From a bacterium (GTDB lineage: Bacteria > Patescibacteriota > WWE3 > 2-01-FULL-39-13 > JAACPI01), in assembly GCA_009995545.1 (NCBI GenBank), contig JAACPI010000001.1, positions 2,475 through 66,474 of the forward strand: 64,000 nt of DNA. Reading direction: 5' to 3'. The notes beneath the pieces are model-generated. The model did no database searches. It saw nothing but the letters and a program-made list of their open reading frames with translations, and was not told the origin of the DNA. Each line of letters starts with the position of its first letter. Positions within the stretch are counted from its first letter, which is position 1. The position numbers were made by a program, and so were the translations under genes. Below are positions 28,029 through 63,800 of the stretch, piece by piece.

Positions 28029-28394
28029 ATGAGTAAAGTAGTGTTATCCGACCAAGAGCGAAAAGATTTTTTTAAAAAATTTATTGACGTCATTAAATAC
28101 ACTGACGAAAAAGATCTTTTACCAGATTTTTTTATAGATTTTTTAAGTCAAACAGAGCTGGATAGTTTTATAAAAAGATTAGAGGTATTCAAAAGGTTAT
28201 ACAATGGCCACAGCTACGCAAGGGTTAATCAAGAACTTAGTGTTAGTCCTATAACTGCAAGTAAGGTATCGAGGTCACTTAGAGATTCTTCTGAAAGATT
28301 TAAAAGTATATTAGAGGCAATATCAGATACTGTACCTCAGCAAAAGGTAGAACAAAAAGTAGAAAAAGACGATAAAAGAAGTAGTTACTTATAA
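28029..28394 (+). CDS. TrpR/YerC-like small HTH protein
   Basis: YARVNQELSVSPITASKVSRSL matches the Trp-repressor-like family HTH. Confidence 0.5.
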   Translation: MSKVVLSDQERKDFFKKFIDVIKYTDEKDLLPDFFIDFLSQTELDSFIKRLEVFKRLYNGHSYARVNQELSVSPITASKVSRSLRDSSERFKSILEAISDTVPQQKVEQKVEKDDKRSSYL

Positions 28395-39364: not shown

Positions 39365-40489
39365 ATGGAACTAAATGACCGTTTTTATAAGTCAACTGAG
39401 GTCTCAGAGATTCTTGGAGTGTCTTTAAGAACACTCTATCGTTACATGGATTCGGGTAAAATCCAATCAGTACAGCTTCCAAGTGGAAGACATCGGTTTA
39501 CTAAACAGCAAGTGGAGTCTTTTTTGTACTCTAATGGCTCAGGTGGTTTAGGGCAAAATGTTCCTATTCAGTCTTATCAAAATAATGCTGACAGAGTTTA
39601 TGTAGATACTGGTTATTCACAAAACCAGAACCAGAACCAATACCAGAACCAGAATCAAAACTCAGGTCAGGGTCAAAACAATGCTTCTGGGATGCCAAAT
39701 AATCAATATAACGGACAGCAGACACCTTTTAACGAATCACAAGGACAACAGCCTGTAGCCCAGGTTAACCCTTATAGCGCACCGGTGCAAAACCAGAACG
39801 CTAGTCCCTTTGCATCTTCACCTTCTGTAAGCCCCCAAATGGATAACAATGTCGCTAATACTCCTGCAGCTCCTGTTGAGGAAGAAGCAGACGATTTAGA
39901 CGCTGAGTTAGAAGAGCTGTTGGCCTCTCTGGAGAGTGACTCCGAGGATGATACAGCTGTAGTAGAAAACTCATCACCTAATAGCGCCCCCCAAAATAAT
40001 GCAGACACTTCTAGTGCTGACCAAACCAAATCTTATACAGGTGGTTTAGGTGGTTTTGCGGATGAAGAAGAGGTTGAAGAAAAAATTACTATACCTAGCG
40101 TAGATGAGAATAATGTTGTTTATTTCTACTGTCCTTATAATCAGTTAAGGGCTATCGCTAGAATGGTAAAAACAACTTCTGAAGATAATGGCAAAAACTA
40201 TGCTTTTACAATGAACGCTGGTTTGTCGCTATACTTTCCTTTAGATCCTTTTTCTGTCATTCACTTCTATATAGAAGAATCTGATTTGGATTTTTGGAAA
40301 GATAACTTACAGCTTAAAGAAAGTAGTAAAAGTGACGCTAACATAGGTTTATTACTTACAAAAGGTGGGGCTTTAAACAATACTAAAGAAGTTAGTGGGT
40401 TAAAAGTTGTATCTAAAGAAGTAATGATAAACAACCTAAAAGCAAATGGCCTTGAAAATTTAATTTCTCAGGTCGAAAGTAAGCTTTAA
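39365..40489 (+). CDS. DNA-binding protein: N-terminal excisionase/MerR-type HTH, a Q/N-rich low-complexity region, an acidic tract and an uncharacterised C-terminal domain
   Basis: YKSTEVSEILGVSLRTLYRYMDSGKIQSVQLPSGRHRFTKQQVESFL (HTH_17-like), followed by NQNQNQYQNQNQN. Confidence 0.5.
   Translation: MELNDRFYKSTEVSEILGVSLRTLYRYMDSGKIQSVQLPSGRHRFTKQQVESFLYSNGSGGLGQNVPIQSYQNNADRVYVDTGYSQNQNQNQYQNQNQNSGQGQNNASGMPNNQYNGQQTPFNESQGQQPVAQVNPYSAPVQNQNASPFASSPSVSPQMDNNVANTPAAPVEEEADDLDAELEELLASLESDSEDDTAVVENSSPNSAPQNNADTSSADQTKSYTGGLGGFADEEEVEEKITIPSVDENNVVYFYCPYNQLRAIARMVKTTSEDNGKNYAFTMNAGLSLYFPLDPFSVIHFYIEESDLDFWKDNLQLKESSKSDANIGLLLTKGGALNNTKEVSGLKVVSKEVMINNLKANGLENLISQVESKL
39620..39662 (+). repeat. 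Simple CAGAAC-type microsatellite encoding the Q/N tract
   Basis: aaccagaaccagaaccaataccagaaccagaatcaaaa. Confidence 0.7.
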
Positions 40490-40611
40490 GTAGGTTACTT
40501 GAATGAATCAATCCTTAACCTGGTCAAATTCTTTGGCTAGGTTTAAGGGTTAGTTTTAAATAACTACTAGAGAATTCTAAAACTCCCTTTTAATTTCGTT
40601 CTGTTTATATT

Positions 40612-40718
40612 CTCCTTCATGCACCCAGTCGACTAAGCTTCGAATCTCAGCAACTCTATTGTGGATTTGCACCCAAGCAGCCTCAGTTCATAAAATCACT
40701 GTGTTTTATGTGCATACA
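40612..40718. repeat. Copy A of a roughly 100-bp intergenic element (modules Y then X) with reiterated (A/T)TGCACCC motifs
   Basis: catgcacccagtcgactaagcttcgaatctcagcaactctattgtg then tttgcacccaagcagcctcagttcataaaatcactgtgttttatgtg. About 80% identical to the modules at 55668-55779. Confidence 0.6.
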
Positions 40719-40956
40719 GTTCCGTACTTTATTTACTACCAATAATTATAACTTCAATAAATGAGTGTAAAAATTTAAGGGTAAGGTTGCGTCAATGATT
40801 AAATAAAAAATAATCGTGTGATCATTACGCTAGTGTTACCAGTAATTTAATACTTAAAATAACTTAGATTGGAGAATAAAGTAGGGGAGTGTTTGCACAA
40901 TATTAAGTGCTAATTAAAACCTAAAATCGATTCTTTCTTTTAACATTAAGAGCTTA

Positions 40957-41016
40957 AAACCCACCTCGGCAACAAGTGTCCTGCCCAACCACTCGTTACG
41001 GGGGTGAGGTGGGTTT
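40957..41016. other. Long GC-rich hairpin (11-bp stem, 38-nt loop) in a non-coding region
   Basis: aaaacccacctc...gaggtgggttt. The loop contains cctcggcaac, which is shared with the repeat element. Confidence 0.5.
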
Positions 41017-41306
41017 AAAACTCTTAACTTTTAATGTTCCAAAGCAATGCTGTTTAGCAATTCTTATGTAAATACTATAGCATAAGTCAGCGTACTTGTC
41101 AATACTATGGGGTCGATATAAAATGAAATCTTGTTATAAGCTTTTGTAACAGGATTTTGTCTTTATCTAATAAACATAGATTAACGAAAAACATAATAAC
41201 ACAGCAAAATAATTTAATCTATAGTCTAATTTAACTTTCGCTAGGGGATTGCTTAACTAATAGTAAAAGGGGGTTAAACCAAATGTGGGTATTTTATTAT
41301 GCAAAT

Positions 41307-41342: not shown

Positions 41343-41768
41343 CTATTTAAGTGTTACTTTAGCTCCAGCTTCTTCTAATTTAGCTTTTGCTGCTTCTGCT
41401 GCTTCTTTTTTAGCTCCTTCTAATATTACTTTAGGGGCTGCTTCTACTAAGTTCTTTGCGTCTAATAGACCTAATGAACTATCTAATTCTCTTACTGCCT
41501 TAATAACTGCAATTTTGTTACCACCAGCTTCTGTAAGCTCTACGTCGTAACTACTTTTTTCTTCTTCAGCTGCTCCTCCTTCTGCAGGGGCTGCTCCTAC
41601 CATTGCTACAGGTGCTGATGCGCTAACACCAAATTTTTCTTCCATAGCTTTTACTAAATCTGCTAATTCTAAAACGGTCATTTTTTCTACCATTTCCATT
41701 ACTTTTTTAGCATTTGCGGATAATTCCACAGTTGCTTTTTCTTCTACTACTGATTTTTCGTCTGCCAT
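41343..41768 (-). CDS. rplL: Ribosomal protein L7/L12
   Basis: Ala/Glu-rich, with a KAAP...GAKK...[11 protein letters not shown]-terminus. Confidence 0.9.
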
Positions 41769-44747: not shown

Positions 44748-47135
44748 TTAACGATCATTCTGAAAGTACCACAACATTCCGTCTACTAACTCTTCCATAT
44801 GTTTTGGTGTAAGGGCCAATTTGTTTTGTTGATTTAACCAACTTACATATTCCTTAAAAAAGTCCGGGCCCAGTACTATTAATTGGCTTCCAGTACTCCG
44901 AGTTATGTTTAATACGTGGTCGGTTAATTCTTTAACACGAAAAGCTCCAAATATTTTGCCGTAACTACTGTTATTAGCAATAACTCTATGACTGCCGTAT
45001 TTATCTTGGCTTATTACACCTGGGGTATTTTTTATACACACATCCAAAAGTTCTGCAAAAGCATAGCCCATAAGATCATTTGGTATGTATTTTATTAACC
45101 AATCTTGTGTAAGAGTATCCAGTGCTATCACTCTAGGGGTAACCTCCATACCTGCGGATAATGCTGCATTAAATTTATTTGCATAAGCCTCGTCGTAGTA
45201 AAAGACCTCTTTTTTAGTTTCTTGTTTTTTACTTGGCCCGCCAGTTTTAATCATTTTAGATCTTTTTATAGCAACTTCTACACCTTCTTGTGCCTGTATT
45301 TCTTCCAAAGCTTGTCTGTGGGCTGTACTACCGGGTTTGAAGGGCATTAGCATTTGTAAGTACTCAAAAATTTTATCGTAACTTATAAACTCTAAAAAGA
45401 CCTGTTTTAAGTCTAAAATGTCCTCGTTGCCCTCTAAATTAGCCGTATCTACTAAGTAGTATAAAAATTTTATTCTAGCATCAATGTCTGCCTTTAATGT
45501 TTCTACAGTCTGGATAATACTTGGCCTTAGTCTTACAAGATTTGTTCGTTGACCTCTACAGTACCTTTTTATGTTTTCTAGCCTGCCCGCCGTAAAATCA
45601 AAATCCCCTAAGTTATGGGGGTGAATAGCCTGTTGTATCAATATTATAAGATGTTCACCCATTAAAATTACATCTTCGTCTGTTATTGCAATTTCTGGTT
45701 TTTTATCTTCATTTTTCAATTTTAGCTTGTAGATAGATCCTTCCAACTTCCAACCGTTCTGCTGACCATTTAAGATTTTGGAATAAATCTCTTCTCTTTC
45801 ACTACCCTTTAACTGTAAAAGCAAACTTAAAGTTTGTGCCAGCAATTCCTGAGTTTCTATAGAAACGGTTGCTTTAGACCAGCTGTGTAGAGCGTTTTCT
45901 ACATCCTGTATAGAAAATTCTTCACCCACAAAATTTTGTAGTGCCAGTTCTACTGCTTCTATCCCACCTACTCTTTGGGCAGTAGCATGCTCTTTGTTGG
46001 ATCCATCAAACCCTTTTTTAGATAAGTATTGAAGTAATTGTCCTTGTGAGCAACATCTAAGTTCTTCTATTGCTTTTGCTAAAGATGGTCTATCTAACGA
46101 ACTTAAAAAAGTTCTTGTTGTTGTGCCCAAAAAATTCGCTTTGTCTAACTTATGTTCTAAAGTTTGCAATAAAATTAAAAAGGTTCTGTGGTTTAGTCCC
46201 GATGCTGTAATAATACCTTTTACAGCTTCTAGTGTGTCTTGTGAAGATTTCTCTACTAAAATAGGTTGTACTTCGGATCTTACTCTACCTGAAATACCTC
46301 TCACTTCTCTAATCATTTGGTATATTCTTGCCTGTTTAGTATTTTGGCACAAAGTTAAGTACAGGTCTTGCTGTCTGGTAGCCGCGATTTCTTTTCTACC
46401 CAGGTGTTTAAAACCCGCCCCCTCAGTAGTTTTAATTCCCGATAAATCCAGTAGTTCTTGTATTGGGTCCACCCCTTCCTCTTCGTCAAAATTTTTCAAA
46501 GTCTCGGGATCAACAATTAATTCTTGTCTTTGTTTTTTAAGTGTTGGATTGAATTTTAAAAAATCCCTGTATTTTGAAACTTGCTCCCAAATATTTACTA
46601 AGGGTAAGTTGGTCGTTTTCTCAACGTTAAATAAAACTTCTCTTCTGTAGGCTGCAATGGCGGGTAATACTGGGTAAATAACTGCTCTAAAGTCTTCTAT
46701 TTGTTTTTCTATTTCTGCTAACTGTTCTACTGCGTAATTTTGTTGGTACCTTAAGGCAGTTCTTGCCGTAGTTACAAGGCAAGGAAAGTCTTGTGCCCCA
46801 TCGTAAATATCCTGTAATAGGGGAGTAGTATAGTAGTCAACTTCAAATCCAAAGTTTGCGTGTATAAATTGCTTTTCTAAGTACTCATAGTAGTAAATAT
46901 TAGACGCTTCTTCAGGTTTTGCCTGTGGGGTAGAGTTTTGTGGTGTGAAGTAGTTTTCTCCAAACAGCTGTTTAATAAGTAATACCTCTTCTTGTTTGAT
47001 ATAGGGCTGTTCAAAAGGAATACTTGTTTCTTCCATCACTCTATTAGCGGCCTCTAGAAGACAGTCTCTCCACTCTTGTTGTGCTGGGTTTTCAAACTCT
47101 ATTTGATTTTCGTTTGTATCTTGTTTTAGTTTCAT
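44748..47135 (-). CDS. Large hypothetical protein (795 aa), 34 bp upstream of secE on the same strand
   Basis: Long ORF, predominantly helical by composition, with no recognisable catalytic motif. The C-terminal roughly 150 aa has faint macro-like spacing (VIANNSSYG…LIVLGPDF). Confidence 0.5.
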   Translation of the reverse strand: MKLKQDTNENQIEFENPAQQEWRDCLLEAANRVMEETSIPFEQPYIKQEEVLLIKQLFGENYFTPQNSTPQAKPEEASNIYYYEYLEKQFIHANFGFEVDYYTTPLLQDIYDGAQDFPCLVTTARTALRYQQNYAVEQLAEIEKQIEDFRAVIYPVLPAIAAYRREVLFNVEKTTNLPLVNIWEQVSKYRDFLKFNPTLKKQRQELIVDPETLKNFDEEEGVDPIQELLDLSGIKTTEGAGFKHLGRKEIAATRQQDLYLTLCQNTKQARIYQMIREVRGISGRVRSEVQPILVEKSSQDTLEAVKGIITASGLNHRTFLILLQTLEHKLDKANFLGTTTRTFLSSLDRPSLAKAIEELRCCSQGQLLQYLSKKGFDGSNKEHATAQRVGGIEAVELALQNFVGEEFSIQDVENALHSWSKATVSIETQELLAQTLSLLLQLKGSEREEIYSKILNGQQNGWKLEGSIYKLKLKNEDKKPEIAITDEDVILMGEHLIILIQQAIHPHNLGDFDFTAGRLENIKRYCRGQRTNLVRLRPSIIQTVETLKADIDARIKFLYYLVDTANLEGNEDILDLKQVFLEFISYDKIFEYLQMLMPFKPGSTAHRQALEEIQAQEGVEVAIKRSKMIKTGGPSKKQETKKEVFYYDEAYANKFNAALSAGMEVTPRVIALDTLTQDWLIKYIPNDLMGYAFAELLDVCIKNTPGVISQDKYGSHRVIANNSSYGKIFGAFRVKELTDHVLNITRSTGSQLIVLGPDFFKEYVSWLNQQNKLALTPKHMEELVDGMLWYFQNDR

Positions 47136-47140
47136 TTATA

Positions 47141-47170
47141 AACAAAAAAGGCGCCCTTAAGACGCCTTTT
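47141..47170 (-). terminator. Intrinsic terminator between the 447-aa and 795-aa genes (bidirectional hairpin)
   Basis: aaggcgcccttaagacgcctt hairpin followed by TTTTTTGTTT on the minus strand. Confidence 0.55.
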
Positions 47171-47196
47171 AATATCAGTATAGGTTCGGTTAATTA

Positions 47197-48540
47197 TTAA
47201 TTTCCTCCGTTCAAAAAGTCGATTCGTTCCGCCTCTGACCAGTCAGTAGGGTCTACACCAAAATGATTCGCATTTGGGTTTGTCCAGTGGCTTTGCATAA
47301 AAGCAGTTTGGTCTCTTTCTCCCAATTTAACTAGAAGTGCCGTGTACGACGAATCTGAACCACTAAGATCTGTGTTACGGACCAGCTGCTTAGCTGTATT
47401 TCGGACTCTCTTTGTTCTACCTGCCACGCTAACTACACCAGCCTTGCTCTCTGTAGTCTCAGGTTCGAAGTAAAGTTGCAGAGATAAAACGCTCCTAGCG
47501 GCCTTAACCGGATCAAAGTGTCTATTTGAAAAATTTGGGTCCTGTAAGGCTTGTAGATTATTTTTATTACGTAATAGTTGCTCCACAATACCTATCCTAA
47601 ATAATTCATACTCGCTCCCCATGTTTTCTAAACTATAGCTGTAAACATCGTCTGAAATATCCGTTTGGAGTATTCCTGACTTTCCTTCATCTTCCAAATC
47701 ACAATGAATTCCCAAAATTCTGCAGGCTATCTCGTGTGCCTCTGTAATTATCTCCAGATTTGTCAGGTCAATATTTACCCCAAATAGTTGTTTTAGCTGA
47801 TTAAATAAGGCTGATTCAAAGTACTCCTGGTTTCCTGATGCTATATTACTTAACACTATTAATAGTGTTTCCGCTAGTGCCACTTCCTTATTTTTCCTGT
47901 CCCTCATCAGTTGTTCTCGATCTTGCTCCCTTCCTTTTTGTTTTGATTGGTGTGCAATCTGTACTATTCTAATAATTTTAGAAACTGGCCCGGTACGGGA
48001 TTCCATTATCTGCCTAGGTGTTTCCTCAAAGTCAGTAGGGGCTCCAAGTATTTGCATAATAGTTTCATTAGATAAAGCACTTGCCCCAGGGAAATATTTT
48101 TCCATTCTACGTGTAGAAATTGGGTGACCAAAAAGTGAACTTATTTCATCTAGTGCCCTGGGGTCTACTGTTTCTCTTTTAATTCCACTGGAAGTTCGTC
48201 TCCAAAACTCTTCCATGTGAGCCTGTCCAGTTGTATCCGCTATCCGACCTATCCGACCTATCATTATTAGGTCCTTGTCCCTGGTTACATAGGGAAGTCT
48301 CCCTGCAATTAAAGCAAACTCTCCGATTCCACTCCCGCTGTTTGCAATTTCTGAGGCTGTAACTCTTGCTAGCACGCCGTGGGTATTTAATACTGTGGCC
48401 ACATCTGTAGCTGTAGGTATAAATTCTTGGATTTCCTTATTTTCCTTTACAGGCACAATTTCTGTGCCCATTTGTACAGATTCTCTAGATATGGGTTCGT
48501 TTGGTTTGTTTGACATATTTAATGTATAAAAATCTTGCAT
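47197..48540 (-). CDS. Hypothetical protein (447 aa), GC-elevated
   Basis: ORF with no recognised motif. GC is about 40-45%. Confidence 0.5.
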   Translation of the reverse strand: MQDFYTLNMSNKPNEPISRESVQMGTEIVPVKENKEIQEFIPTATDVATVLNTHGVLARVTASEIANSGSGIGEFALIAGRLPYVTRDKDLIMIGRIGRIADTTGQAHMEEFWRRTSSGIKRETVDPRALDEISSLFGHPISTRRMEKYFPGASALSNETIMQILGAPTDFEETPRQIMESRTGPVSKIIRIVQIAHQSKQKGREQDREQLMRDRKNKEVALAETLLIVLSNIASGNQEYFESALFNQLKQLFGVNIDLTNLEIITEAHEIACRILGIHCDLEDEGKSGILQTDISDDVYSYSLENMGSEYELFRIGIVEQLLRNKNNLQALQDPNFSNRHFDPVKAARSVLSLQLYFEPETTESKAGVVSVAGRTKRVRNTAKQLVRNTDLSGSDSSYTALLVKLGERDQTAFMQSHWTNPNANHFGVDPTDWSEAERIDFLNGGN

Positions 48541-48679
48541 TATATTAACCTATAGGTTTTTTTATGTCAAGACATTTTATGCTCTATTAACAAGATATGG
48601 AACTTCTAAAATACAGTAATACCTCGTGGGACTGTAAGTTTTTGTTTTTTTTACTTAACTCTATTTTAAATGTATATAA

Positions 48680-48708
48680 TTGACTTTTCTAAGTACCTAT
48701 AGTATAAA
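48680..48708 (+). promoter_or_regulatory. Sigma70-like promoter (TTGACT-17-TATAAA) for the 218-aa gene
   Basis: Near-consensus spacing. A GAGAGGG SD-like sequence lies 8 nt before the ATG at 48764. Confidence 0.35.
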
Positions 48709-48763
48709 ATAGGTGCTGTTAATCGACGTTGTTAATTGAAGTACTAGTGAGAGGGCATTAAAA

Positions 48764-49420
48764 ATGCAGACAACACAGGCAGTTGTAAGTGGGGATCAGT
48801 TCCTCGGTGAATTGGAGTTTGGTATAACGTGGGATCCGTCTCGTATGGAGGAGTCCAAGACATACTTTGGTCTTCTCATCGAAGGGGCCGGCGACCAGGG
48901 AATACTAGCTTCAGAAGCCCAGGAGTTGATGAAGAAGGAGGGGCTTTGGCCTGACGTAGGGCCCAAGGCCGGGGCGGTCGTGAGATCGTACGCAGTGAAG
49001 GATGTCCGGGACGAGGGGGTCTTTTATATTCCCAAAGCCTCCAAATCCACACAAGTTGTTGAGTCAGTTGGGGAAGCCGCCGTCTCTACAGGTGACCCTG
49101 CCTCTACGGTTGAAGCCGCCGCAAAAGTTGCTGCTGAATCCGTAGAAGAGAAGTCGGCCGCTGAGTCTGTGAAAGAAGAGATTGGGTCCAAAACCCCAAC
49201 CCCTGAATTGGATTACATGCTCGCCTTGGTCGAAGGTCTTGAGTCTAGGGTTCACGAGTTGGAGCAGGTAAACAATGCTCTCACTGAGATGTTTGAACTG
49301 CTAGAGGCAAAGGTTATTTCCGGGCTCTCCAGACTTGAGGTTGAATTGGATCTCAGTATGGTGAAGGGAGATCCTCAGCCGAAGAAGCATGTTGTGCATC
49401 TGCACTTCCACGACGAGTAG
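48764..49420 (+). CDS. Hypothetical protein (218 aa) with strongly elevated GC, an Ala/Glu-rich linker, a coiled coil and a His-rich C-terminus
   Basis: Local GC is about 47-60%, the highest in the window. Ends …HVVHLHFHDE. Confidence 0.5.
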   Translation: MQTTQAVVSGDQFLGELEFGITWDPSRMEESKTYFGLLIEGAGDQGILASEAQELMKKEGLWPDVGPKAGAVVRSYAVKDVRDEGVFYIPKASKSTQVVESVGEAAVSTGDPASTVEAAAKVAAESVEEKSAAESVKEEIGSKTPTPELDYMLALVEGLESRVHELEQVNNALTEMFELLEAKVISGLSRLEVELDLSMVKGDPQPKKHVVHLHFHDE

Positions 49421-49433
49421 GGTTAACAGCAAC

Positions 49434-49493
49434 CGACTGGGGGTCGAGAATAAACGCAATGAATTATTGCAACTATATCTCGACCCCCAGTTG
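49434..49493. other. 15-bp-stem inverted repeat with a 30-nt loop (the loop itself is a small hairpin), immediately 3' of the GC-rich gene
   Basis: cgactgggggtcgag … ctcgacccccagttg. No U-tract follows on either strand. Confidence 0.5.
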
Positions 49494-49519
49494 GAAACCC
49501 AAAAATATAAATAATATAA

Positions 49520-52273
49520 ATGTCAAAAGCACTAGCAGAATCTCAATTTAAGGGTGATCAAGAAAAGGTTTTTATAGACTTGTTTGGTAATGCTTGCGTA
49601 GAGATAGCTAACGAGGAATACTTTGATGCTTACAATAAATATCCAAAACCTACTGGTGAGGAAGACCCTCATTTTAATACTTTTTTACAATCTAGAATTT
49701 CTGTTTACCAACGAGCTTTGGAAATAGGAAAATCCTGCTTAGATAATAGATTTACAAACGACCCAGAGGTTACTTTGCAAGATCCCAAAGACGGTGTATT
49801 TAAAACCTATAAATATGACCCTGTTAGTAGGGGGGTAGTTCTCGTTAATGAAGCAGTCTCCAAACAGGGTAATAGTTTTATAGATTTTACGCTAAATTTT
49901 GGAGAAGAATCTGCCTCGGACAATTCAGATAACGGAGACTTCCGCCGATCGGAAAATGACGAGATTAACTTTTACTCTGATTATACCTTGATGCACCAAA
50001 TGCTTTCAAAGGGCATGGAAGAGTTAGGTGCTCAATATACTTTTTTTGAGGCAGCCTTAAATAAATTTAAAAGATTTGACTCCACTGGTTGGGCTACATT
50101 AAAAAACACACCCCCCATTGATATAAACTTAAAAAGGGCTAAAAACTATCTTGCGATTCTAGATAAAATGCCCTCAAATGTAGAAAAAAGCTCTTGGTTT
50201 GTAAACCAAAGGGTCTTAGATCCTTCTTTAGAGAACTGGTCAGATAGAAGTAATCAGTTGCTAGAAGAGGCTGAAATTTTGGAAGGATTTTTTAATTCTG
50301 GCCCGGAGTATAAAACTGTACGAACTTTAAACTCTGAGAATTCTTTTGCTGTAGCATTGATTGGGGAAAGATATACCCCTTCTTCATTTCCTCAAATATA
50401 TATTGACGATGTTATTGCGATTAGTAGGATAATTTATGATCTAGCTATTTCTATACCCGATCCAATTGACAGAGAAAGTGCCTTAACAAATGTTGCTAGC
50501 GAGATTTTTATTAAAAGGTCTTCTCAGTTAGTCTCTTTATTGGAATCAAGAGGCATGCCTGTTGAATTGGGGTTAAATTACTTTAGGCAGATATTACAAA
50601 AGTACATTATGCGTCTCCCGGAACAATACTGCGTAGACTTTTTTGAGGGTAGAGAAGTTGAATTTACAATGAGAAACTTACTTTATGGTAGATATAACAC
50701 TGTTCACGATGAAAGAGAAAACTCCGAACGACATTTAGCCTCTTTTTTACAGCAGTATAAACAGGGGAAGTACAAGTCAGACTCGTTGGAGTCTTTAGAA
50801 CCCGGTACCGTTAAAGAAGTTTACGCCAAACTGGTAACAGGAAAACTAGAGGGTTTTGACTCAGAAAGCACTAGAAATGCCCTTATAGCCACTTTGAGAT
50901 ATTTTCAAATCGACTACGAGGATTCTTTGCAGGTTTTTGTTCCCACCGAAGGGTCGGTTACGTGCAGAACTTTTTTTGGGTCGATTAAAGATAACTTAAA
51001 ACAGCTTTCCCCTGTGGTTATCGAAGTGTTTTCTGAAATTTACGCTTATAAAAGTCTAGTTAACGAACTTAATGAGCTTGGAAAAGCAGGTCAAATAAAA
51101 GCTGACGCCCTTTTGGTTGGAAGAATTAAAAACAAGTATTCTGGCGAGAACGTCTCTGATTTCAGATCTGGTGATAAATTATATTTAGATTTGGATGTTT
51201 TTGTTGAATGCCACTTGCCCCAGATTGCAAGAAACATTAAATCTGTAATTGAGCAAGTTTCTTACTATAGTCAGCCTTTAAGTTCCGAAAATATTATATT
51301 ATCTGTAAAAAAATGGGTTAAAGAAAGACCAGAACTGGTAAGCCCCGCGTGTGCGGCTTTTGGTTTAAGCCCTCTCCAATTAGAGCAATATATAGCTGCT
51401 AAAGTAACCTTTATAACTGTAAAATCTAAGCGCTATTTTGCAAGTAACCCTAATTTTATGTTAGTTACCCTAGAAAACTCTTGGGCAGAAAACTTAGCAG
51501 AGCAAGAAAGTAAAAAAAAAGTTGAAAAACTTGTAAATAAAGGATTCACCTGGCAGGAATTCTCTGCTTTACCCGTTATAGTGCAAAATAGGCTGGTAGA
51601 TGCTGTTTTCGAAATGCCCGATACCAAGGAAAAACAGGAATTGCTTTTAGATATCTTTTACTATCTAAGGCTTAAATATTCTATGAGAGGGCCACTAAAG
51701 TTGTTTGATGTTACAAAACAGAAATCAGAAGAGCCCTTAGTAAAAATTAAACGCATTCAGGCTGTGTCTCATTTTTCTGTTAGAGCCATTCAAGGTTTAT
51801 CTAGTGAGTCTGTACTTGCAGATTATCTTGATACCGTTTTACTAAGGGATAGACTCTTTTCTACTATAGACAGCGGCATACCCAAACCTTTTACGGGTCA
51901 GTTGGGTAAAGAACTTAGACAAGAATTTTTTACATATTATTTTGCTAAACATGGCACTAGAAAGGGAAGTGTTATACCAAAAACCCTATACAGTAAAGAC
52001 ACTATATCTTTGATGGCAAGGGATTTTGTACAAGAAAACTTAAGTATAGTCGAGGAAAAAATGGAACGGAGAAACGTAAAAATTAGAAGAGCGGAAAACC
52101 ATTATGATTTAGACCGATTTACTAATGAACTTGTAGAATATGCTGAGGATGCCTTTGAAAGAACCCGAAGGTTACTTTACGGTAATGGATACGTGGTTGA
52201 GAGAGGTTTAACAAGTAAGGTTGTTATACAAACATTAACATCTCTACTTGAGGCTTCCTTAGAAAGAATATAA
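49520..52273 (+). CDS. Large hypothetical protein (917 aa)
   Basis: Long ORF with no TM segment, no signal peptide and no nucleotide-binding or metal-binding motif visible. Confidence 0.5.
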   Translation: MSKALAESQFKGDQEKVFIDLFGNACVEIANEEYFDAYNKYPKPTGEEDPHFNTFLQSRISVYQRALEIGKSCLDNRFTNDPEVTLQDPKDGVFKTYKYDPVSRGVVLVNEAVSKQGNSFIDFTLNFGEESASDNSDNGDFRRSENDEINFYSDYTLMHQMLSKGMEELGAQYTFFEAALNKFKRFDSTGWATLKNTPPIDINLKRAKNYLAILDKMPSNVEKSSWFVNQRVLDPSLENWSDRSNQLLEEAEILEGFFNSGPEYKTVRTLNSENSFAVALIGERYTPSSFPQIYIDDVIAISRIIYDLAISIPDPIDRESALTNVASEIFIKRSSQLVSLLESRGMPVELGLNYFRQILQKYIMRLPEQYCVDFFEGREVEFTMRNLLYGRYNTVHDERENSERHLASFLQQYKQGKYKSDSLESLEPGTVKEVYAKLVTGKLEGFDSESTRNALIATLRYFQIDYEDSLQVFVPTEGSVTCRTFFGSIKDNLKQLSPVVIEVFSEIYAYKSLVNELNELGKAGQIKADALLVGRIKNKYSGENVSDFRSGDKLYLDLDVFVECHLPQIARNIKSVIEQVSYYSQPLSSENIILSVKKWVKERPELVSPACAAFGLSPLQLEQYIAAKVTFITVKSKRYFASNPNFMLVTLENSWAENLAEQESKKKVEKLVNKGFTWQEFSALPVIVQNRLVDAVFEMPDTKEKQELLLDIFYYLRLKYSMRGPLKLFDVTKQKSEEPLVKIKRIQAVSHFSVRAIQGLSSESVLADYLDTVLLRDRLFSTIDSGIPKPFTGQLGKELRQEFFTYYFAKHGTRKGSVIPKTLYSKDTISLMARDFVQENLSIVEEKMERRNVKIRRAENHYDLDRFTNELVEYAEDAFERTRRLLYGNGYVVERGLTSKVVIQTLTSLLEASLERI

Positions 52274-54983: not shown

Positions 54984-55637
54984 TTACCCAACTACTTCAA
55001 AGTATCTTCCTCTAAGCTTGTATAAAATAGGTATAAATATTGCTAGCGCAAATACTGTCCACAAAAAGTTTCCTTTAGTTACTACACTTGTTAAGTAAAA
55101 TAGAGGTATTCCTAGGGTAATTTGGGTTAGTATCATCGCAAAAATATATTTTTTGAAGTCTATTTTAAGAATCCCCGCAGCGTAATGTATAGCTTCTAGT
55201 ACAACAGAGCCGGATAATATTCTAATTACTACTAATGACTCAATTTCCTTACCTTTTTTAATTTTAATTTTTTCAACTTTTAAAGCCCAACTTTCTCCAA
55301 ACATTTTTCTAATTACAGAAATTCCGTACTTTTTGGCCAGATAGTAATTAAATATGCCCCCTAGTGTTGAACCCAGGGCATCGGCCACAAAAGCCGACTC
55401 CCATCCAATTATGGGTACCGTGGCTACCGTAACTACACCTCCAACCAGGGGAGGGTAAATAATAGCAATAAATTTGTATAGGGTGATTATAAATAAAAAC
55501 AGCCAATAATTTTCTTTAGACCAAATAAGTAGGATATTAAATAGGGGGGTAGTACTAAACCAGTAGTAACTAATTATGGCTAGTACCGTTACTAAACCAA
55601 TCCAAATAAAACTTTTTGGTATTTTCGGTAGTTGCAT
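54984..55637 (-). CDS. DedA/TVP38-family membrane protein
   Basis: PPLVGGVVTVATVPIIGWESAFVADALGSTLGGIFNYYLAKKYG core motif and about 6 TM helices. Confidence 0.5.
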   Translation of the reverse strand: MQLPKIPKSFIWIGLVTVLAIISYYWFSTTPLFNILLIWSKENYWLFLFIITLYKFIAIIYPPLVGGVVTVATVPIIGWESAFVADALGSTLGGIFNYYLAKKYGISVIRKMFGESWALKVEKIKIKKGKEIESLVVIRILSGSVVLEAIHYAAGILKIDFKKYIFAMILTQITLGIPLFYLTSVVTKGNFLWTVFALAIFIPILYKLRGRYFEVVG

Positions 55638-55667
55638 CTTAAGATTATACCAGCTTTAGTTGATAGT

Positions 55668-55779
55668 TGTTGTGCACACCCCTCTTGCACCCCAGCAACA
55701 CCGGTTCGATCCCTCACCGTGTTTTATGTGTCCATGCACCCAAAACGAGTAAGCTTCGTTCCTCGGCAACTCTATTGTG
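55668..55779. repeat. Copy B of the intergenic element (modules X then Y), containing a degenerate tRNA T-arm-like GGTTCGATCCC and running into the tRNA-Trp promoter
   Basis: ttgcaccccagcaacaccggttcgatccctcaccgtgttttatgtg then tccatgcacccaaaacgagtaagcttcgttcctcggcaactctattgtg. Compare 40612-40718. Confidence 0.6.
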
Positions 55780-55786
55780 CTATAAT
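55758..55786 (+). promoter_or_regulatory. Extended -10 promoter (TGcTATAAT) for tRNA-Trp
   Basis: TATAAT at 55781-55786 preceded by TGc, 11 nt before the tRNA 5' end. The -35 is weak. Confidence 0.35.
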
Positions 55787-55797
55787 TTTGTCTGTCT

Positions 55798-55872
55798 AGG
55801 GCTATAGTGTTAGTGGTAGCACGTGGGTCTCCAAAACCTAAAGCGAGGGTTCAAATCCTTCTGGCCCTGCCA
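55798..55872 (+). tRNA. tRNA-Trp (anticodon CCA)
   Basis: AGGGCTA… with anticodon arm GGTCTCCAAAACC as in trpT, an A1:U72 pair, discriminator G and encoded CCA. Confidence 0.85.
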
Positions 55873-56519
55873 TTTTTCTCATGAGGCTACGGACTGTAAA
55901 CCAGACGAAACTTGCTTTGATGAAGTACCCGAAGAGTCTGAATCTTCCAACCAAGCCTGACTTGGCCTCCCCTTATTCGACATTGCGTGTCCGCAATTTT
56001 ATTTTAACCCCAACCCTACCTCCTACATCCAATATCCTGATTTCTGTGTAACCCTTACTCCTTTTGACAAAATTTTCAGTCGGTGTAGTATTAAATTATT
56101 AGGGGACACAGTTTAAACGGTAAAGTCCCATTGCACATTAGTAATTCACTGTCCTGCGCTACATGTTTTAAAGTTGTAGTTTCCTTGTATAAAAAACTAC
56201 CGGGACTTCTGATCATTTTAAACCTTGGTTTAAAGTACGAAGACCCACCTTGCGTTCGCAAGGAACTTTTTAACTTTTAACGGTAGTGTGGGTAGTATTA
56301 GTACGTGTATCAAATTACCGAAAGGCGTAATATGGTCGCACGTTACCAGACTTGGGGCGCAAGCACCTTTCCAGGGCACGGCGCCCCATTCACATATAAA
56401 TACCCCTTTATTCTGCTAACTCTTTATATCCTTTAACTACTTACCTTTAATTATTTTGTAAACTTGTGAGATAATTTAATTGTTTGTGTTAGATAACAAT
56501 ACATACCCAAATATTTTAA

Positions 56520-60865: not shown

Positions 60866-63800
60866 ATACGAAGATCTTTAAGGTATTAGTGCTTTTTTTC
60901 CTACTCTTAACCTTAGTACTGCTTATTTTCCCATCTAAAAAACATGTTTCAGCTCAGACCTGTACAGGTTCTGCTCAATATGTCGACTACAGCTGTGTTT
61001 TTGATGACATAACTTTACTTTATAGCTGTATTGCTAATGGCGGTATGACCGTAGCCTGTGCAGGAGTTCCGTGCCAGACTTTCGGCCCAGTCTTTTGTTG
61101 GGGGGGTCTTAGTTGCGGCCTGTCTGCCTATGGTTCTACAGCAGGTTGCAGCACAACCCCCGTACCCCCTGCTGTTTGCGGTAACGGTACTAGAGAAACA
61201 GGAGAAGGTTGTGATGACGGCAATAAAACGAATGGTGATGGCTGTAGTTCTTCTTGTCAGATAGAAACTTCTAAACCCGTCTGCGGAAATGGTAAAAAGG
61301 AAACAGGAGAAGGTTGTGATGACGGCAATAAAACGAATGGTGATGGCTGTAGTTCTTCTTGTCAGCTAGAACCTTCCTTGCCCGTGTGTCCAAACGGTAT
61401 TGTGGAAGCTGGGGAGGCTTGTGATGACGGTAATAGTAACAATTTGGATGGTTGCAGAAATAACTGCACCACTCCTTATTGTGGCGATGGTATTATAGAC
61501 TCTCCAGGGGAGACCTGTGATGGGGGAGTGGGGTGTACTTCTAACTGTACCGGTATTACAGGAGGGGGATACGCTTGTAATGGGTCCTCCTGTGAAGCCT
61601 CTGTTGGTGGTCCATACACTGCCTCAGATTGCGGAGGAGCTTGTAATACTCCGACAGGACAATTTTTTTGTGGAAATGACCTGGCTTGCCACCCTTGTGG
61701 TGCGGGCGACTCAAATTGTAAATCCTTGGGAGATTGTCAAAGTGAGTGTGTATGTACTTCTCCAGGTGGGTGCTTTGTTTCTGGGTGTAACCCCTTAGCC
61801 ACTTCGGGAATTTGCGATGGTGCACTTATCCCTGGCGCCAACACTACTGGCTGTATGGGGAACGGTTGGATGGATCTTTTAGATTTAGCTTCAAAAAGGG
61901 TTAGGTATAATTTAGATTGTGGTAATGCAAACTGGGGCCAAACCAACATTGGTGGTGGAGGGACAAACTACGAGGGGTTGGGTGTTTTACGTAAATTACC
62001 AAATCCCCCCGATCCAAACTACCCTTGGGTTGAGGTGGCACTAGTACCTAATGGCCAGGGGGGTTCTATTGATTTTACCGACCCTTATCTTACCACGGGT
62101 GTTAATCAATATAAGGTTATAGCCAGATGTGCTTATCGTGAAAACACAGGTACTGCCGATAGGATAAAATGGGTAAAGATTGGTGGTACTACATATCACA
62201 ACAATGACGATTTCTACGATGTGAGTATGTACTCTGCATGTAGCCAGGATAAGATACTGCAGCTGGTTCTAACTCCCCCCGTCTGCAATAACTGGTTTGT
62301 TAGTCCGAACATAGACAGCATCCCAAAAACTGTAAGCATAGAATCCAATGCTTACGACGGCGAGGGTCTATCAGGGGGAGGTATGTATTACAGCACTACC
62401 CAAAATGGGGCTTACGGCAGCATAGATAGTAATGGAAACTTTGTAGCTGGGACGGCTGGAGAAATTATTGCTAACAGGGCAGATTATTTTTCTTCGGGTA
62501 CTTTAGCAGGTAAAATAACTTCTACCTTTAACATACAAAACTTACCATCGGGTAATTATCAGTTTCAGGGTAATTATTGGAATAAATATGCAAGTTTTCC
62601 CAGTACCGACCCTTTGCACTTCAAGCAATGTCTCTCCCCTCAAGTATATATAGATAATACTCCGCCTACCTGCGGAAATTGGAATTTTAACCCCGCTTCC
62701 CCTTTGGATTCGACCCAAAACTCCTTTAGCGTTTCCACTTCTGCTACGGACAACTCTGCAATTAGAGATTTCGGTTTTTACTACCAGAACTACGACGAAT
62801 CTACAAGTACCTGGGGATACTACGATGCCGGAGGTGTTTTTGTTCCAAATTCTTACGTACCTCTCGTAAAAAACAAATCAGATTATTTTACTCCCCCTGT
62901 TCCGAGCCCTACAACTACTAATTTTATTAATAGGTCCAATATACCCTCAAATAAATTTAGGTTTTTTGCAAACTACTGGGATTCCTCAGCACCTCATAAC
63001 TTGTCGGCAGGGAGTAATAATTTTTCTCAGTGTGTTTCGCCCGTTTATGAAATAAAATCCTCGGCTCCTGTAATTTCTTTAACAATTCCTGCCGCAACTA
63101 CTTACAAGGGATATAATAATTATTATTCTGATGGTAAATATTCTGTTCAGGTAAAAATTACCGATACCCCAGGAGACGTTAATACTTACAATTGGGGAGT
63201 ACTAGGCGGGTTATTAACTGGATCTCTAACCAGTGGCTTAAAGAATGGTACAGTTGTAAATTATCCTTTCAGTTTAAGTTTAGACTGGGCTCCCGGATCA
63301 GCATTTAACCAAGTTGGCACATCTCAGGTGTCTTTTAATAGTATAGACTCACAGGGTAACGATATTACTGTTTCTGACCAGATAAGTACCGTATCCCCAA
63401 CTTTTACAGCAAACACTAGCCTTCGTTATAGAAACAAGGTTGTTAGCGGTTCTCAGGACTTAAAAGCCTTTTGTGAAGATGCCGAGTTTAACAACAATGC
63501 GAATACCAAGAATTTCAATTCAGGAAATAATGGAATCTCCGCGATAGTCAATTTTACCTCTGCAGGTCCTCTTGCGAGTTCTTCCTACAACAAAAGCTTT
63601 AATACTAAAATCCAGGGCACCGACGTTTATACTAATTTAGTTGAGATGGTGGGAACTAGCTACTATACTGCCAGTTTTCTTCCCCAGTTTACTGTCCCTG
63701 GTTACGAGGTACTATGCATCAAAGACATGACGAACAACAAAACATACTCTGGGCAATCCGACTTGCTTGTTAACGTAGCTCGAGAGTCGACTCTGAATTT

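What the first reader, a model, noticed from the sequence alone, without database searches (positions are those of the whole stretch)
40612..40718. Roughly 100-bp intergenic element present twice (here and at 55668-55779) with modules in swapped order, reiterated TGCACCC motifs and a tRNA T-arm-like core
Module Y (catgcaccca…taagcttcg…gcaactctattgtg) and module X (ttgcaccc.agca.c…gttc…cac.gtgttttatgtg) are about 80% identical between the two loci but occur as Y-X at 40.6 kb and X-Y at 55.7 kb.

(A/T)TGCACCC recurs five times, and cctcggcaac also recurs inside the big hairpin at 40957-41016.

In copy B, module X contains GGTTCGATCCC (a tRNA T-loop consensus without a matching stem), and module Y runs straight into the extended -10 promoter of tRNA-Trp.

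The element could be a family of regulator-binding sites (iterated TGCACCC half-sites), a decayed tRNA-derived attachment-site remnant, or a small dispersed repeat (MITE-like).
Basis: seen in the sequence. Interest (0 to 1): 0.5.

Follow-up and report, generated by a model that had tools for sequence, protein, structure and literature searches.

The report
Two-module intergenic repeat near tRNA genes
Two ~46-base non-coding DNA modules occur side by side at two places in this candidate-phylum (WWE3) bacterial genome, and in relatives, always beside tRNA or small-RNA genes; they are conserved far more than neutral DNA, so they probably act as protein-binding control DNA, but this is an ordinary kind of element whose function is untested.

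Summary
Module X (40667-40712 and 55685-55730, 74% identical) and module Y (40619-40663 and 55734-55779, about 85%) are real repeats. They run Y-X at locus A and X-Y at locus B.

The "swap" is a phase effect. Both loci carry partial neighbouring modules at their edges, so each is a different cut of an alternating ...X-Y-X-Y... array.

X and Y share only the head WTGCACCC and the tail TGTG. They do not fold as RNA, and no Rfam family, tRNA included, matches copy B's X module. The cctcggcaac match to the hairpin is at chance level.

Y-like copies turn up in another WWE3 genus at other loci: abutting tRNA-Arg and upstream of a 6S-like gene. X is 87% conserved upstream of tRNA-Trp in a sister species whose synonymous sites are only 51% identical. 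Locus A is missing from the orthologous spacer of a relative.

Best reading: a lineage-restricted, sequence-constrained dispersed repeat that is probably protein-binding or regulatory DNA. At locus B it fills the gap between the DedA and tRNA-Trp promoters.

I found no transposase or integrase. The rest of the genome could not be searched. Interest is modest.

The parts
40602..40618 (+). Degenerate X-tail remnant (TGTTTATATTCTCCTTC) just before Y_A
   Evidence: The local alignment of locus A to an X-Y-X-Y array built from the B units extends into this stretch.
40619..40663 (+). Module Y, copy A (ATGCACCC...CGACTAAGCTTCG...GCAACTCTATTGTG)
   Evidence: Repeat family D19; blastn to B E=7e-6; nhmmer; null test.
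40667..40712 (+). Module X, copy A (TTGCACCC.AGCA...GTTC...TCAC.GTGTTTTATGTG)
   Evidence: Repeat family D11, 74% identical to the B copy; pattern search.
40713..40718 (+). Degenerate Y-head remnant (CATACA, compare CATGCA); GTGCAT at 40709-40714 is the inverted complement of the Y_A head ATGCAC
   Evidence: Alignment; TGCAC/GTGCA site list.
55661..55684 (+). Left edge of copy B: Y-tail-like GTTGTTGTG fused to CACACCCCTC, forming the 8-bp palindrome TGTGCACA (55671-55678), which is conserved in L006
   Evidence: Sequence; alignment with L006; TGCAC sites.
55685..55730 (+). Module X, copy B (contains GGTTCGATCCC at 55703-55713)
   Evidence: Family D11. 33 of 38 nt are identical to the orthologous X in L006, while 4-fold sites are 51% identical.
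55734..55779 (+). Module Y, copy B; its last bases supply the TGTG of the tRNA-Trp extended -10
   Evidence: Family D19; sequence.
55776..55786 (+). Extended -10 promoter TGTGCTATAAT of tRNA-Trp (tRNA at 55798-55872)
   Evidence: Sequence; tRNA; identical in L006. tRNA-Thr has a similar TGTGCTAATAT.
55644..55652 (-). Divergent DedA/VTT promoter TGGTATAAT, 6 nt before the ATG (55637); probably a leaderless mRNA
   Evidence: Read from the sequence; gene identified; conserved in L006.

Best explanation
X and Y are two distinct ~46-nt non-coding DNA modules. They belong to a small repeat family restricted to this candidate-division WWE3 (Patescibacteria) lineage.

They occur as short head-to-tail alternating arrays (...X-Y-X-Y...) in the few long spacers next to stable-RNA genes. 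Each module starts with WTGCACCC and ends with T.TT.TGTG. Locus A (x'-Y-X-y') and locus B (y'-X-Y) are two different phases of such an array. That is why the order looks swapped.

The modules are held by selection on the DNA sequence itself, not by RNA folding or coding. The most likely role is protein-binding cis-regulatory or architectural DNA, with TGCAC/GTGCA half-sites (inferred).

At locus B the array fills the ~130 bp between the divergent leaderless DedA promoter and the tRNA-Trp promoter. The Y tail forms the TGTG of the tRNA-Trp extended -10 (shown). Locus A is a secondary, lineage-specific copy in the HTH-rplL spacer, downstream of a conserved hairpin sRNA gene. How it was copied there is unknown.
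For: The repeat is real and its two modules are adjacent at both loci.

Array phase: homology runs past one Y-X unit into partial neighbouring modules at both loci. X and Y share nothing beyond the head and tail.

Constraint: window versus L006 shows 51% identity at 4-fold sites. Against that, X is 87% identical (33/38), the promoter plus tRNA 89%, the DedA-promoter side 74%, and Y 63%. Window versus the L012 organism shows 46% at 4-fold sites, yet Y_A versus the L012 Y copy is about 80% over 44 nt, including an identical CGACTAAGCTTCG.

Not RNA: folding z-scores run from -0.2 to +0.5 on both strands. Consensus folds are only -3 to -7 kcal/mol with one or a few compensatory pairs. There are no Rfam hits.

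Motif: 120-nt clusters of three or more TGCAC sites occur at A and B and at only one other place in 64 kb, inside the leuS coding region. L006 keeps the three orthologous TGCAC sites and adds a perfect TGCAC-AAA-GTGCA dyad. The TGTGCACA palindrome at the left edge of B is conserved.

Context: every copy sits in a stable-RNA spacer. These are tRNA-Trp (window, L006), tRNA-Arg (L012), the 6S-like gene (L019), and the hairpin sRNA (locus A).
Against: No binding protein is identified. The neighbouring HTH_17 gene keeps its synteny in relatives that lack the element.

Locus A has no convincing promoter next to it and is absent from the orthologous spacer in L012.

Y is only about 63% conserved at locus B between the window and L006, so its constraint there is weak.

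The L012 and L019 copies have altered heads (GCGCACCC, GGGCACTC, CTGCAC).

High identity between genera could also come from recent transfer of a mobile sequence rather than from selection.

Only 64 kb of this genome plus a few short contigs of relatives could be searched, and the family rests on six to seven copies.
Confidence: 0.4

Rival explanations
1. X/Y is a non-autonomous mobile or recombination-prone element. X and Y would be cassette-like units bounded by a shared junction (TGTG-N3-WTGCACCC) and moved between stable-RNA spacers by a recombinase or transposase encoded elsewhere. The between-genus similarity would then reflect the enzyme's recognition requirements or recent transfer.
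For: Presence/absence differs between lineages at two loci. Locus A is missing in L012. The tRNA-Arg trailer copy is missing in the window, where that spacer is only 76 nt. Copies occur in both orientations. The module order is permuted and every junction has the same form, including L019: TTTTGTG-GCT-CTGCAC. Identity is about 80% where synonymous sites are saturated. In L012, 16 nt of the tRNA-Arg 3' end are duplicated next to Y copies. Contigs of relatives break at or next to the element.
Against: There are no terminal inverted repeats or target-site duplications. No integrase, transposase or recombinase domain was found in any window ORF of 110 aa or more. There are only two loci in 64 kb. 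X at locus B is kept in place and conserved across species like a resident functional site. Phage, plasmid and viral collections gave no match.
Confidence: 0.25
2. The element is a neutral relic. A local tandem duplication upstream of tRNA-Trp was copied once to the HTH-rplL spacer. It has no function beyond the promoter bases it happens to overlap.
For: Only two copies lie in the window, and they differ by 15-26%. Locus A is absent in L012, L013 and L015. Y at locus B diverges quickly between the window and L006 (63%). No promoter or terminator is tied to locus A.
Against: X is 87% conserved where neutral sites are 51%. Y-like copies are about 80% identical across genera whose 4-fold sites are 46% identical. 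TGCAC dyads are retained or regained in L006.
Confidence: 0.15
3. X/Y is a decayed tRNA-derived attachment-site scar. The modules would descend from tRNA 3' halves duplicated by integrase-mediated insertion at tRNA genes.
For: X_B carries GGTTCGATCCCTC.CCGTGT, which resembles the T-arm plus acceptor strand of a tRNA-Leu (none of 300 shuffles reached the score). In L012 a Y copy abuts the CCA end of tRNA-Arg, and the last 16 nt of that tRNA recur 210 nt away, followed by another partial Y. Copies lie next to tRNA genes.
Against: The Rfam scan, which includes the tRNA covariance model, finds nothing in 55660-55735 even in a 76-nt search space. The T-loop string is absent from X_A and has no matching stem. 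Neither Y nor X_A matches any window tRNA in either orientation at p<=0.03. Copies A and B are direct repeats around 15 kb that hold nusG, rplKAJL, rpmBG and tRNA-Thr, which is not an island. No integrase was found.
Confidence: 0.1
4. X/Y acts at the RNA level: as a small RNA, as a 3' trailer or terminator on the reverse strand, or as a C-rich Rho-utilisation (rut) region on the forward strand.
For: In the reverse orientation, Y directly follows tRNA-Arg in L012, and short hairpin plus U-run shapes can be drawn, for example CCGAAGAAACUCGGUUUU in L019. The forward strand is C-rich, G-poor and unstructured, and the window encodes Rho. A weak minus-strand promoter-like site (40771-40742) points into locus A.
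Against: There is no folding signal or consistent structure on either strand. The candidate hairpins sit at different positions in different copies. rut sites are not conserved at the 87% level. There is no Rfam match.
Confidence: 0.07

Closest known systems
Upstream activating regions of stable-RNA promoters (E. coli rrnB P1 and tyrT UAS with phased Fis sites and an UP element; from my own knowledge)
   Same: Copy B lies directly upstream of a tRNA core promoter, from about -14 to -110. It carries reiterated short motifs and is conserved between species as sequence rather than as structure.
   Different: No Fis homologue or known binder was found here. The motif (TGCAC dyads) is unrelated. 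The same modules also occur away from promoters and in the opposite orientation. No activity has been measured.
REP/BIME-type mosaic extragenic repeats and MITEs
   Same: They are short, strictly intergenic and built from modules that combine in variable order and orientation. Their presence varies between related genomes.
   Different: The modules are not palindromic hairpins. There is no GTAG-type head, no TIR or TSD, and no RAYT or transposase in the window. Only two loci occur in 64 kb.
Repeats distal to tRNA genes that contain the tRNA 3' end (E. coli tyrT 178-bp repeats; tRNA-gene att sites of integrative elements; from my own knowledge)
   Same: In L012 the last 16 nt of tRNA-Arg, plus a Y-like trailer, are duplicated 210 nt apart.
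   Different: The window copies contain no recognisable tRNA segment and are not followed by island DNA or an integrase.
TIGR arrays (tandem interspaced guide RNA arrays; PMC12045711)
   Same: Two different short conserved motifs alternate with intervening segments in a head-to-tail array, and the ends of the array are truncated.
   Different: TIGR units have a 36-nt period with 8-12-nt repeats and 9-nt spacers. They usually have 5-15 units, lie next to a Nop-domain tas gene, and have variable spacers. Here the period is about 48 nt, there are two units, the 'spacers' are conserved between loci, and no Tas-like gene is adjacent.

Membership tests
MITE / non-autonomous DDE transposon | Terminal inverted repeats at both ends | tested here: not met
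   X and Y share their head and tail in direct orientation. The only inverted match is the 6-nt ATGCAC/GTGCAT at locus A.
MITE / non-autonomous DDE transposon | Target-site duplication flanking each copy, with the same internal order in every copy | tested here: not met
   The flanks of A and B share no duplicated bases. The order is permuted, Y-X versus X-Y.
MITE / non-autonomous DDE transposon | Many copies per genome, and a cognate transposase somewhere | tested here: inconclusive
   The window has two loci in 64 kb and no transposase domain in its ORFs. The rest of the genome could not be reached: the genome and metagenome DNA scans do not hold this organism.
REP/BIME | Imperfect palindrome (stem-loop) in each unit, with a conserved head tetranucleotide | tested here: not met
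   There is no consistent hairpin. Folding z-scores are about 0 and consensus folds are weak.
tRNA-derived att site / tRNA pseudogene | Recognisable tRNA segment (T-arm plus acceptor strand) scoring with a tRNA model | tested here: not met
   No Rfam hit on 55660-55735 at E<=10. Only X_B resembles the T-arm of a tRNA-Leu, and X_A lacks it.
tRNA-derived att site / tRNA pseudogene | Integrase and island DNA between the direct repeats | tested here: not met
   The 15 kb between A and B hold nusG-rplKAJL, rpmB/G, tRNA-Thr x2, ybeY and dgkA, and no integrase domain.
Structured small RNA / Rfam family | Stable conserved secondary structure with covariation, or a match to a curated model | tested here: not met
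TIGR array | 36-nt units of edge repeat, 9-nt spacer A, loop repeat and 9-nt spacer B, repeated about 5-15 times beside a Nop-domain tas gene | tested here: not met
   Here the period is about 48 nt, there are two units, and the intervening segments are conserved between loci. The neighbouring genes are an HTH_17 protein, rplL, DedA and tRNA-Trp.
Operator / upstream regulatory array of a promoter | Position within about 150 bp upstream of a promoter, and sequence conservation above neutral | tested here: met
   This is met for copy B. It lies between the DedA and tRNA-Trp -10 elements, and X is 87% identical against 51% at neutral sites. It is not met for copy A.
Operator / upstream regulatory array of a promoter | Demonstrated binding by a regulator and an effect on transcription | not testable with these tools
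   This needs EMSA, DAP-seq or reporter assays. The candidate proteins in the window are only leads: the TrpR/YerC-like gene at 28029-28394 and the HTH_17 gene at 39365-40489.

The most novel reading that the evidence does not exclude
The X/Y array could be the operator array of a so far unrecognised regulator of stable-RNA genes (tRNA-Trp, 6S, tRNA-Arg, a hairpin sRNA) in Patescibacteria. It would be a compact, portable control module that these reduced genomes reuse next to their stable-RNA promoters, read through TGCAC dyads. The TrpR/YerC-like protein encoded 27 kb away is a possible binder.
Probability: 0.15. Interest if true: 0.6.

Novelty: new member of a known kind. Interest (0 to 1): 0.3.

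Why it matters
Almost nothing is known about transcriptional control in candidate phyla radiation bacteria, and no curated library describes their non-coding elements. A short module that is conserved well above the neutral rate and recurs beside several stable-RNA genes gives a concrete, testable handle on how these reduced genomes regulate tRNA and small-RNA synthesis. If it proves mobile instead, it bears on how their few spacers are remodelled. If it is only a local duplication, the value is limited to better annotation of the tRNA-Trp promoter region.

Tried and rejected
1. Structured RNA. Single-sequence folds on both strands give z about 0, alignment folds are weak, and Rfam shows nothing at gathering or E-value thresholds.

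2. tRNA remnant. Smith-Waterman comparison against seven tRNAs in both orientations found only X_B resembling a tRNA-Leu T-arm, and the Rfam scan (which includes the tRNA model) found nothing.

3. X and Y as two variants of one unit. Rejected: without the TGCACCC head their similarity is at chance level.

4. Link to the big hairpin through CCTCGGCAAC. It applies to Y_B only, p about 0.045.

5. More copies. nhmmer profiles of X, Y, X+Y and the Y core found none in the window or in the more distant loci.

6. Collection scans. The X pattern and the hairpin core found nothing in genome contigs. The X pattern found nothing in metagenome contigs, not even the source contig. The Y-core pattern in metagenome contigs returned two unrelated high-GC chance hits. 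Viral contigs, phages and plasmids gave nothing.

7. Same-species contigs are 100% identical, so there is no population variation to use.

8. Distant DedA and fmt homologue loci (L007, L009, L010, L023) lack synteny or the element.

9. TIGR array and CRISPR-like geometry were rejected on period, copy number and conserved 'spacers'.

10. dif/Xer, DnaA-box, CRP-like, IHF, CIRCE and Tn7 TnsB-site resemblances were checked by eye from memory. None fits in spacing or is shared by all copies.

11. A short ORF through Y is not conserved in frame (read from the sequences).

12. A sigma-70 promoter inside the modules. TTGCAC is a poor -35, and only Y_B is followed by a -10.

Full report
SETTING

The window is low-GC DNA (about 36%). 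It comes from a Patescibacteria/CPR bacterium: homologues of a neighbouring protein are named 'candidate division WWE3'. Identical DNA occurs on JGI, ENA and Logan metagenome contigs, the longest being Ga0100378_1000030 at 167 kb.

Locus A (40612-40718) lies in an 850-bp spacer between two convergent genes. One is an HTH_17 gene (39365-40489, +). The other is rplL (41343-41768, -), the last gene of a nusG-rplKAJL cluster.

Locus B (55668-55779) lies between a DedA/VTT gene (54984-55637, -) and tRNA-Trp (55798-55872, +). These two genes are divergent.

CHECK OF THE OBSERVATION

Both modules are real.
- X is 46 nt and 74% identical between 40667-40712 and 55685-55730.
- The Y core is 34 nt and 85% identical between 40630-40663 and 55746-55779. 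With its head, Y spans 40619-40663 and 55734-55779.
- The order is Y-GAT-X at A and X-TCC-Y at B.

The similarity exceeds chance. I compared each module with random 46-nt window segments, whose best match elsewhere scores 14.7 +/- 2.7. Y_A scores 28 and X_A scores 22, and their best matches are adjacent. A head-to-tail pattern has 2 hits against 0 expected.

TGCACCC is present four times exactly, plus one variant, TGCACACCC. The string GGTTCGATCCC exists only in copy B.

Y_B does run into TGTGCTATAAT, an extended -10 that lies 11 nt before the tRNA. A similar TGTGCTAATAT precedes tRNA-Thr.

The CCTCGGCAAC match to the hairpin involves Y_B only and sits at p about 0.045. I regard it as chance.

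WHY THE ORDER LOOKS SWAPPED

I aligned each locus to an artificial X-Y-X-Y array built from the other locus's units. The alignment extends past one unit pair.
- Locus A reads x'(tail)-Y-X-y'(head).
- Locus B is preceded by a Y-tail-like GTTGTTGTG fused to CACACCCC.

Both loci are therefore fragments, in different phase, of an alternating array with a period of about 96 nt. X and Y are not variants of one unit. Once the shared head (WTGCACCC) is removed, their similarity is at chance level; they also share the TGTG tail.

WHAT IT IS NOT

- It is not a structured RNA. Folding z-scores are +0.46, +0.45, -0.21 and +0.16 for the two loci on the two strands. Consensus folds of the three X copies and the four Y copies give only -3 to -7 kcal/mol, with one to three isolated compensatory pairs. 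Rfam gives nothing at any threshold.
- It is not a recognisable tRNA fragment. The Rfam scan, which includes the tRNA model, finds nothing in a 76-nt search space around X_B. Only X_B resembles a tRNA-Leu T-arm in pairwise tests, and X_A lacks the motif.
- It is not coding. No frame is conserved (sequences).
- It shows none of the classical transposon features: no terminal inverted repeats, no target duplications, a permuted module order, and no transposase or integrase domain in any window ORF of 110 aa or more.
- The 15 kb between the two direct copies carry essential genes, so they are not the ends of an island.
- TIGR arrays (PMC12045711) share the idea of two alternating short repeats. 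They differ in period (36 nt), spacer length (9 nt), copy number, variable spacers and the adjacent tas gene.

RELATIVES

Contigs of the same species are 100% identical.

L006 is a sister species (DedA 91% amino-acid identity, 4-fold sites only 51% identical). It has the same DedA/tRNA-Trp spacer:
- X is 87% identical (33/38).
- The promoter plus tRNA is 89% identical.
- The DedA-promoter side is 74% identical.
- The Y region is only about 63% identical. It still keeps the orthologous TGCAC sites and gains a perfect TGCAC-AAA-GTGCA dyad.
- The TGTGCACA palindrome at the left edge is conserved.

L012 and L019 come from a second genus. They share a sequencing-run series, and 4-fold sites are 46% identical to the window.
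- The orthologous HTH-rplL spacer lacks X/Y entirely, although other blocks of that spacer are nearly invariant.
- A Y-like module lies elsewhere, in the opposite orientation. It abuts the CCA end of tRNA-Arg(CCT) and is about 80% identical to Y_A, including CGACTAAGCTTCG.
- The last 16 nt of that tRNA recur exactly 210 nt downstream, followed by a partial second Y-like stretch.
- A further Y-like core, TTCTTCGGCAAGTCTTTTGTG, followed by GCT-CTGCAC, sits at the end of contig L019, about 60 nt upstream of the promoter of a 6S-like gene. It was detected with a profile that did not include it, at E=0.03.

The window has no Y after its own tRNA-Arg, where the spacer is only 76 nt.

Profiles of X, Y and the Y core find no further copy in the 64-kb window. 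DNA-pattern scans of the genome, metagenome, viral, phage and plasmid collections found nothing relevant. They evidently do not contain this organism. The genome-wide copy number therefore remains unknown.

INTERPRETATION

Four points are shown:
- This is a real two-module repeat.
- It has an alternating-array structure.
- It is conserved far above the neutral level, both at one orthologous locus (X) and between genera at non-orthologous loci (Y).
- It has no RNA structure, and it is always located in spacers beside stable-RNA genes. At copy B it overlaps the tRNA-Trp promoter.

The following are inferred. The constraint acts on double-stranded DNA, so the most economical function is binding of a protein. 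Candidate recognition units are the TGCAC/GTGCA dyads. In 64 kb, clusters of three or more of these in 120 nt occur at A, at B and at one coding site. At B the array would serve the divergent DedA and tRNA-Trp promoters. I give this reading about 0.4.

The main rival, at about 0.25, is that the modules are recognition sequences of a mobile or site-specific recombination system. That would explain the presence/absence differences, the mixed orientations, the uniform TGTG-N3-TGCAC junctions and the tRNA-Arg 3' duplication in L012. It lacks any enzyme or defined termini.

The other rivals score lower:
- A functionless relic (0.15) conflicts with the conservation.
- A tRNA-derived att scar (0.1) conflicts with the Rfam result and the gene content between the copies.
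- RNA-level roles (0.07) conflict with the folding results.

VERDICT

The family is dispersed and probably protein-binding. It is not convincingly tRNA-derived, and it is not MITE-like in the strict sense.

It is a new, lineage-specific member of a familiar class: short conserved intergenic repeat or regulatory modules. The interest is modest. The most useful by-products are the neighbouring conserved RNA genes listed under 'noticed in passing'.

Noticed in passing
window 40945-41040 (minus strand); promoter 41074-41102: The 'big hairpin' is a strongly conserved structured small RNA candidate on the minus strand. It has 31 base pairs, 4 of them with compensatory changes, and the one-sided changes give G-U pairs only on the minus strand. 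Its 11-nt loop GUUGGGCAGGA is nearly invariant across four WWE3 genomes (window, L012, L013, L015). It is preceded by a conserved TTGACA-17-TGnTATAGT promoter. The whole block is inverted in L015, so it is an independent gene. It has no Rfam match.
   Followed up: partly
window 41096-41200 (plus strand): A divergent plus-strand promoter, TTGTCA-17-TAAAAT, overlaps the sRNA promoter. It is followed by about 80 nt conserved in L012 and L015 (GTTATAAGCTTTTGTAACAGG...ATAGATTAACGAAAAACATAATA). This may be a second small RNA, running antisense towards the rplL 3' end.
   Followed up: no
window 40825-40848: The block TTACGCTAGTGTTACCAGTAATT is almost identical in the L012 spacer, although the surrounding DNA cannot be aligned. 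Its function is unknown.
   Followed up: no
window 56148-56297 (+), promoter 56064-56091; L019:164-337: A 6S RNA-like gene lies between tRNA-Trp and fmt. It scores below the Rfam gathering threshold (38.8 bits, E 4e-6). The same sub-threshold hit (37.6 bits) recurs at the syntenic place in L019 with a conserved TTGACA promoter, so it is probably a genuine divergent 6S RNA.
   Followed up: partly
window 55635-55652 (minus strand): The DedA/VTT gene has TGGTATAAT ending 6 nt before its ATG and no room for a Shine-Dalgarno sequence. It is probably a leaderless mRNA. rpmG and DedA are convergent with only about 3 nt between their stop codons, so rpmBG read-through would run antisense through DedA into locus B.
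   Followed up: no
L012:36-51 and 246-261: There is an exact 16-nt direct repeat of the tRNA-Arg(CCT) 3' end (GAGTCCTGCCGTGGGC), 210 nt apart. Each copy is followed by a Y-like trailer. It looks like a tandem duplication or an integration scar, and the window has no counterpart.
   Followed up: partly
window 28029-28394 (+): A 121-aa TrpR/YerC-YecD-like protein (Pfam Trp_repressor, E 1e-12; below the NCBIfam cut-offs) is encoded in a genome not expected to make tryptophan (from my own knowledge of this group). It is a candidate DNA-binding regulator with no known target. In L006 the region upstream of tRNA-Trp contains AACTAGTT...CTAGAAC, which resembles a trp operator by eye only.
   Followed up: no
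window 44748-52273: Four large ORFs (795, 447, 218 and 917 aa) between the ribosomal-protein cluster and the M50 peptidase gene have no Pfam or NCBIfam hit. Their GC content is slightly raised (0.40-0.43).
   Followed up: no
window 61174-61457: A tandem 105-nt repeat (3 units, 71-92% identical) lies in the GC-richest part of the window. It is probably a repeated protein domain.
   Followed up: no
window 14614-18171 (-): A 1185-aa protein carries a Peptidase_S74 domain (intramolecular chaperone of endosialidase or tail-fibre type), which is unusual outside phage tail fibres.
   Followed up: no
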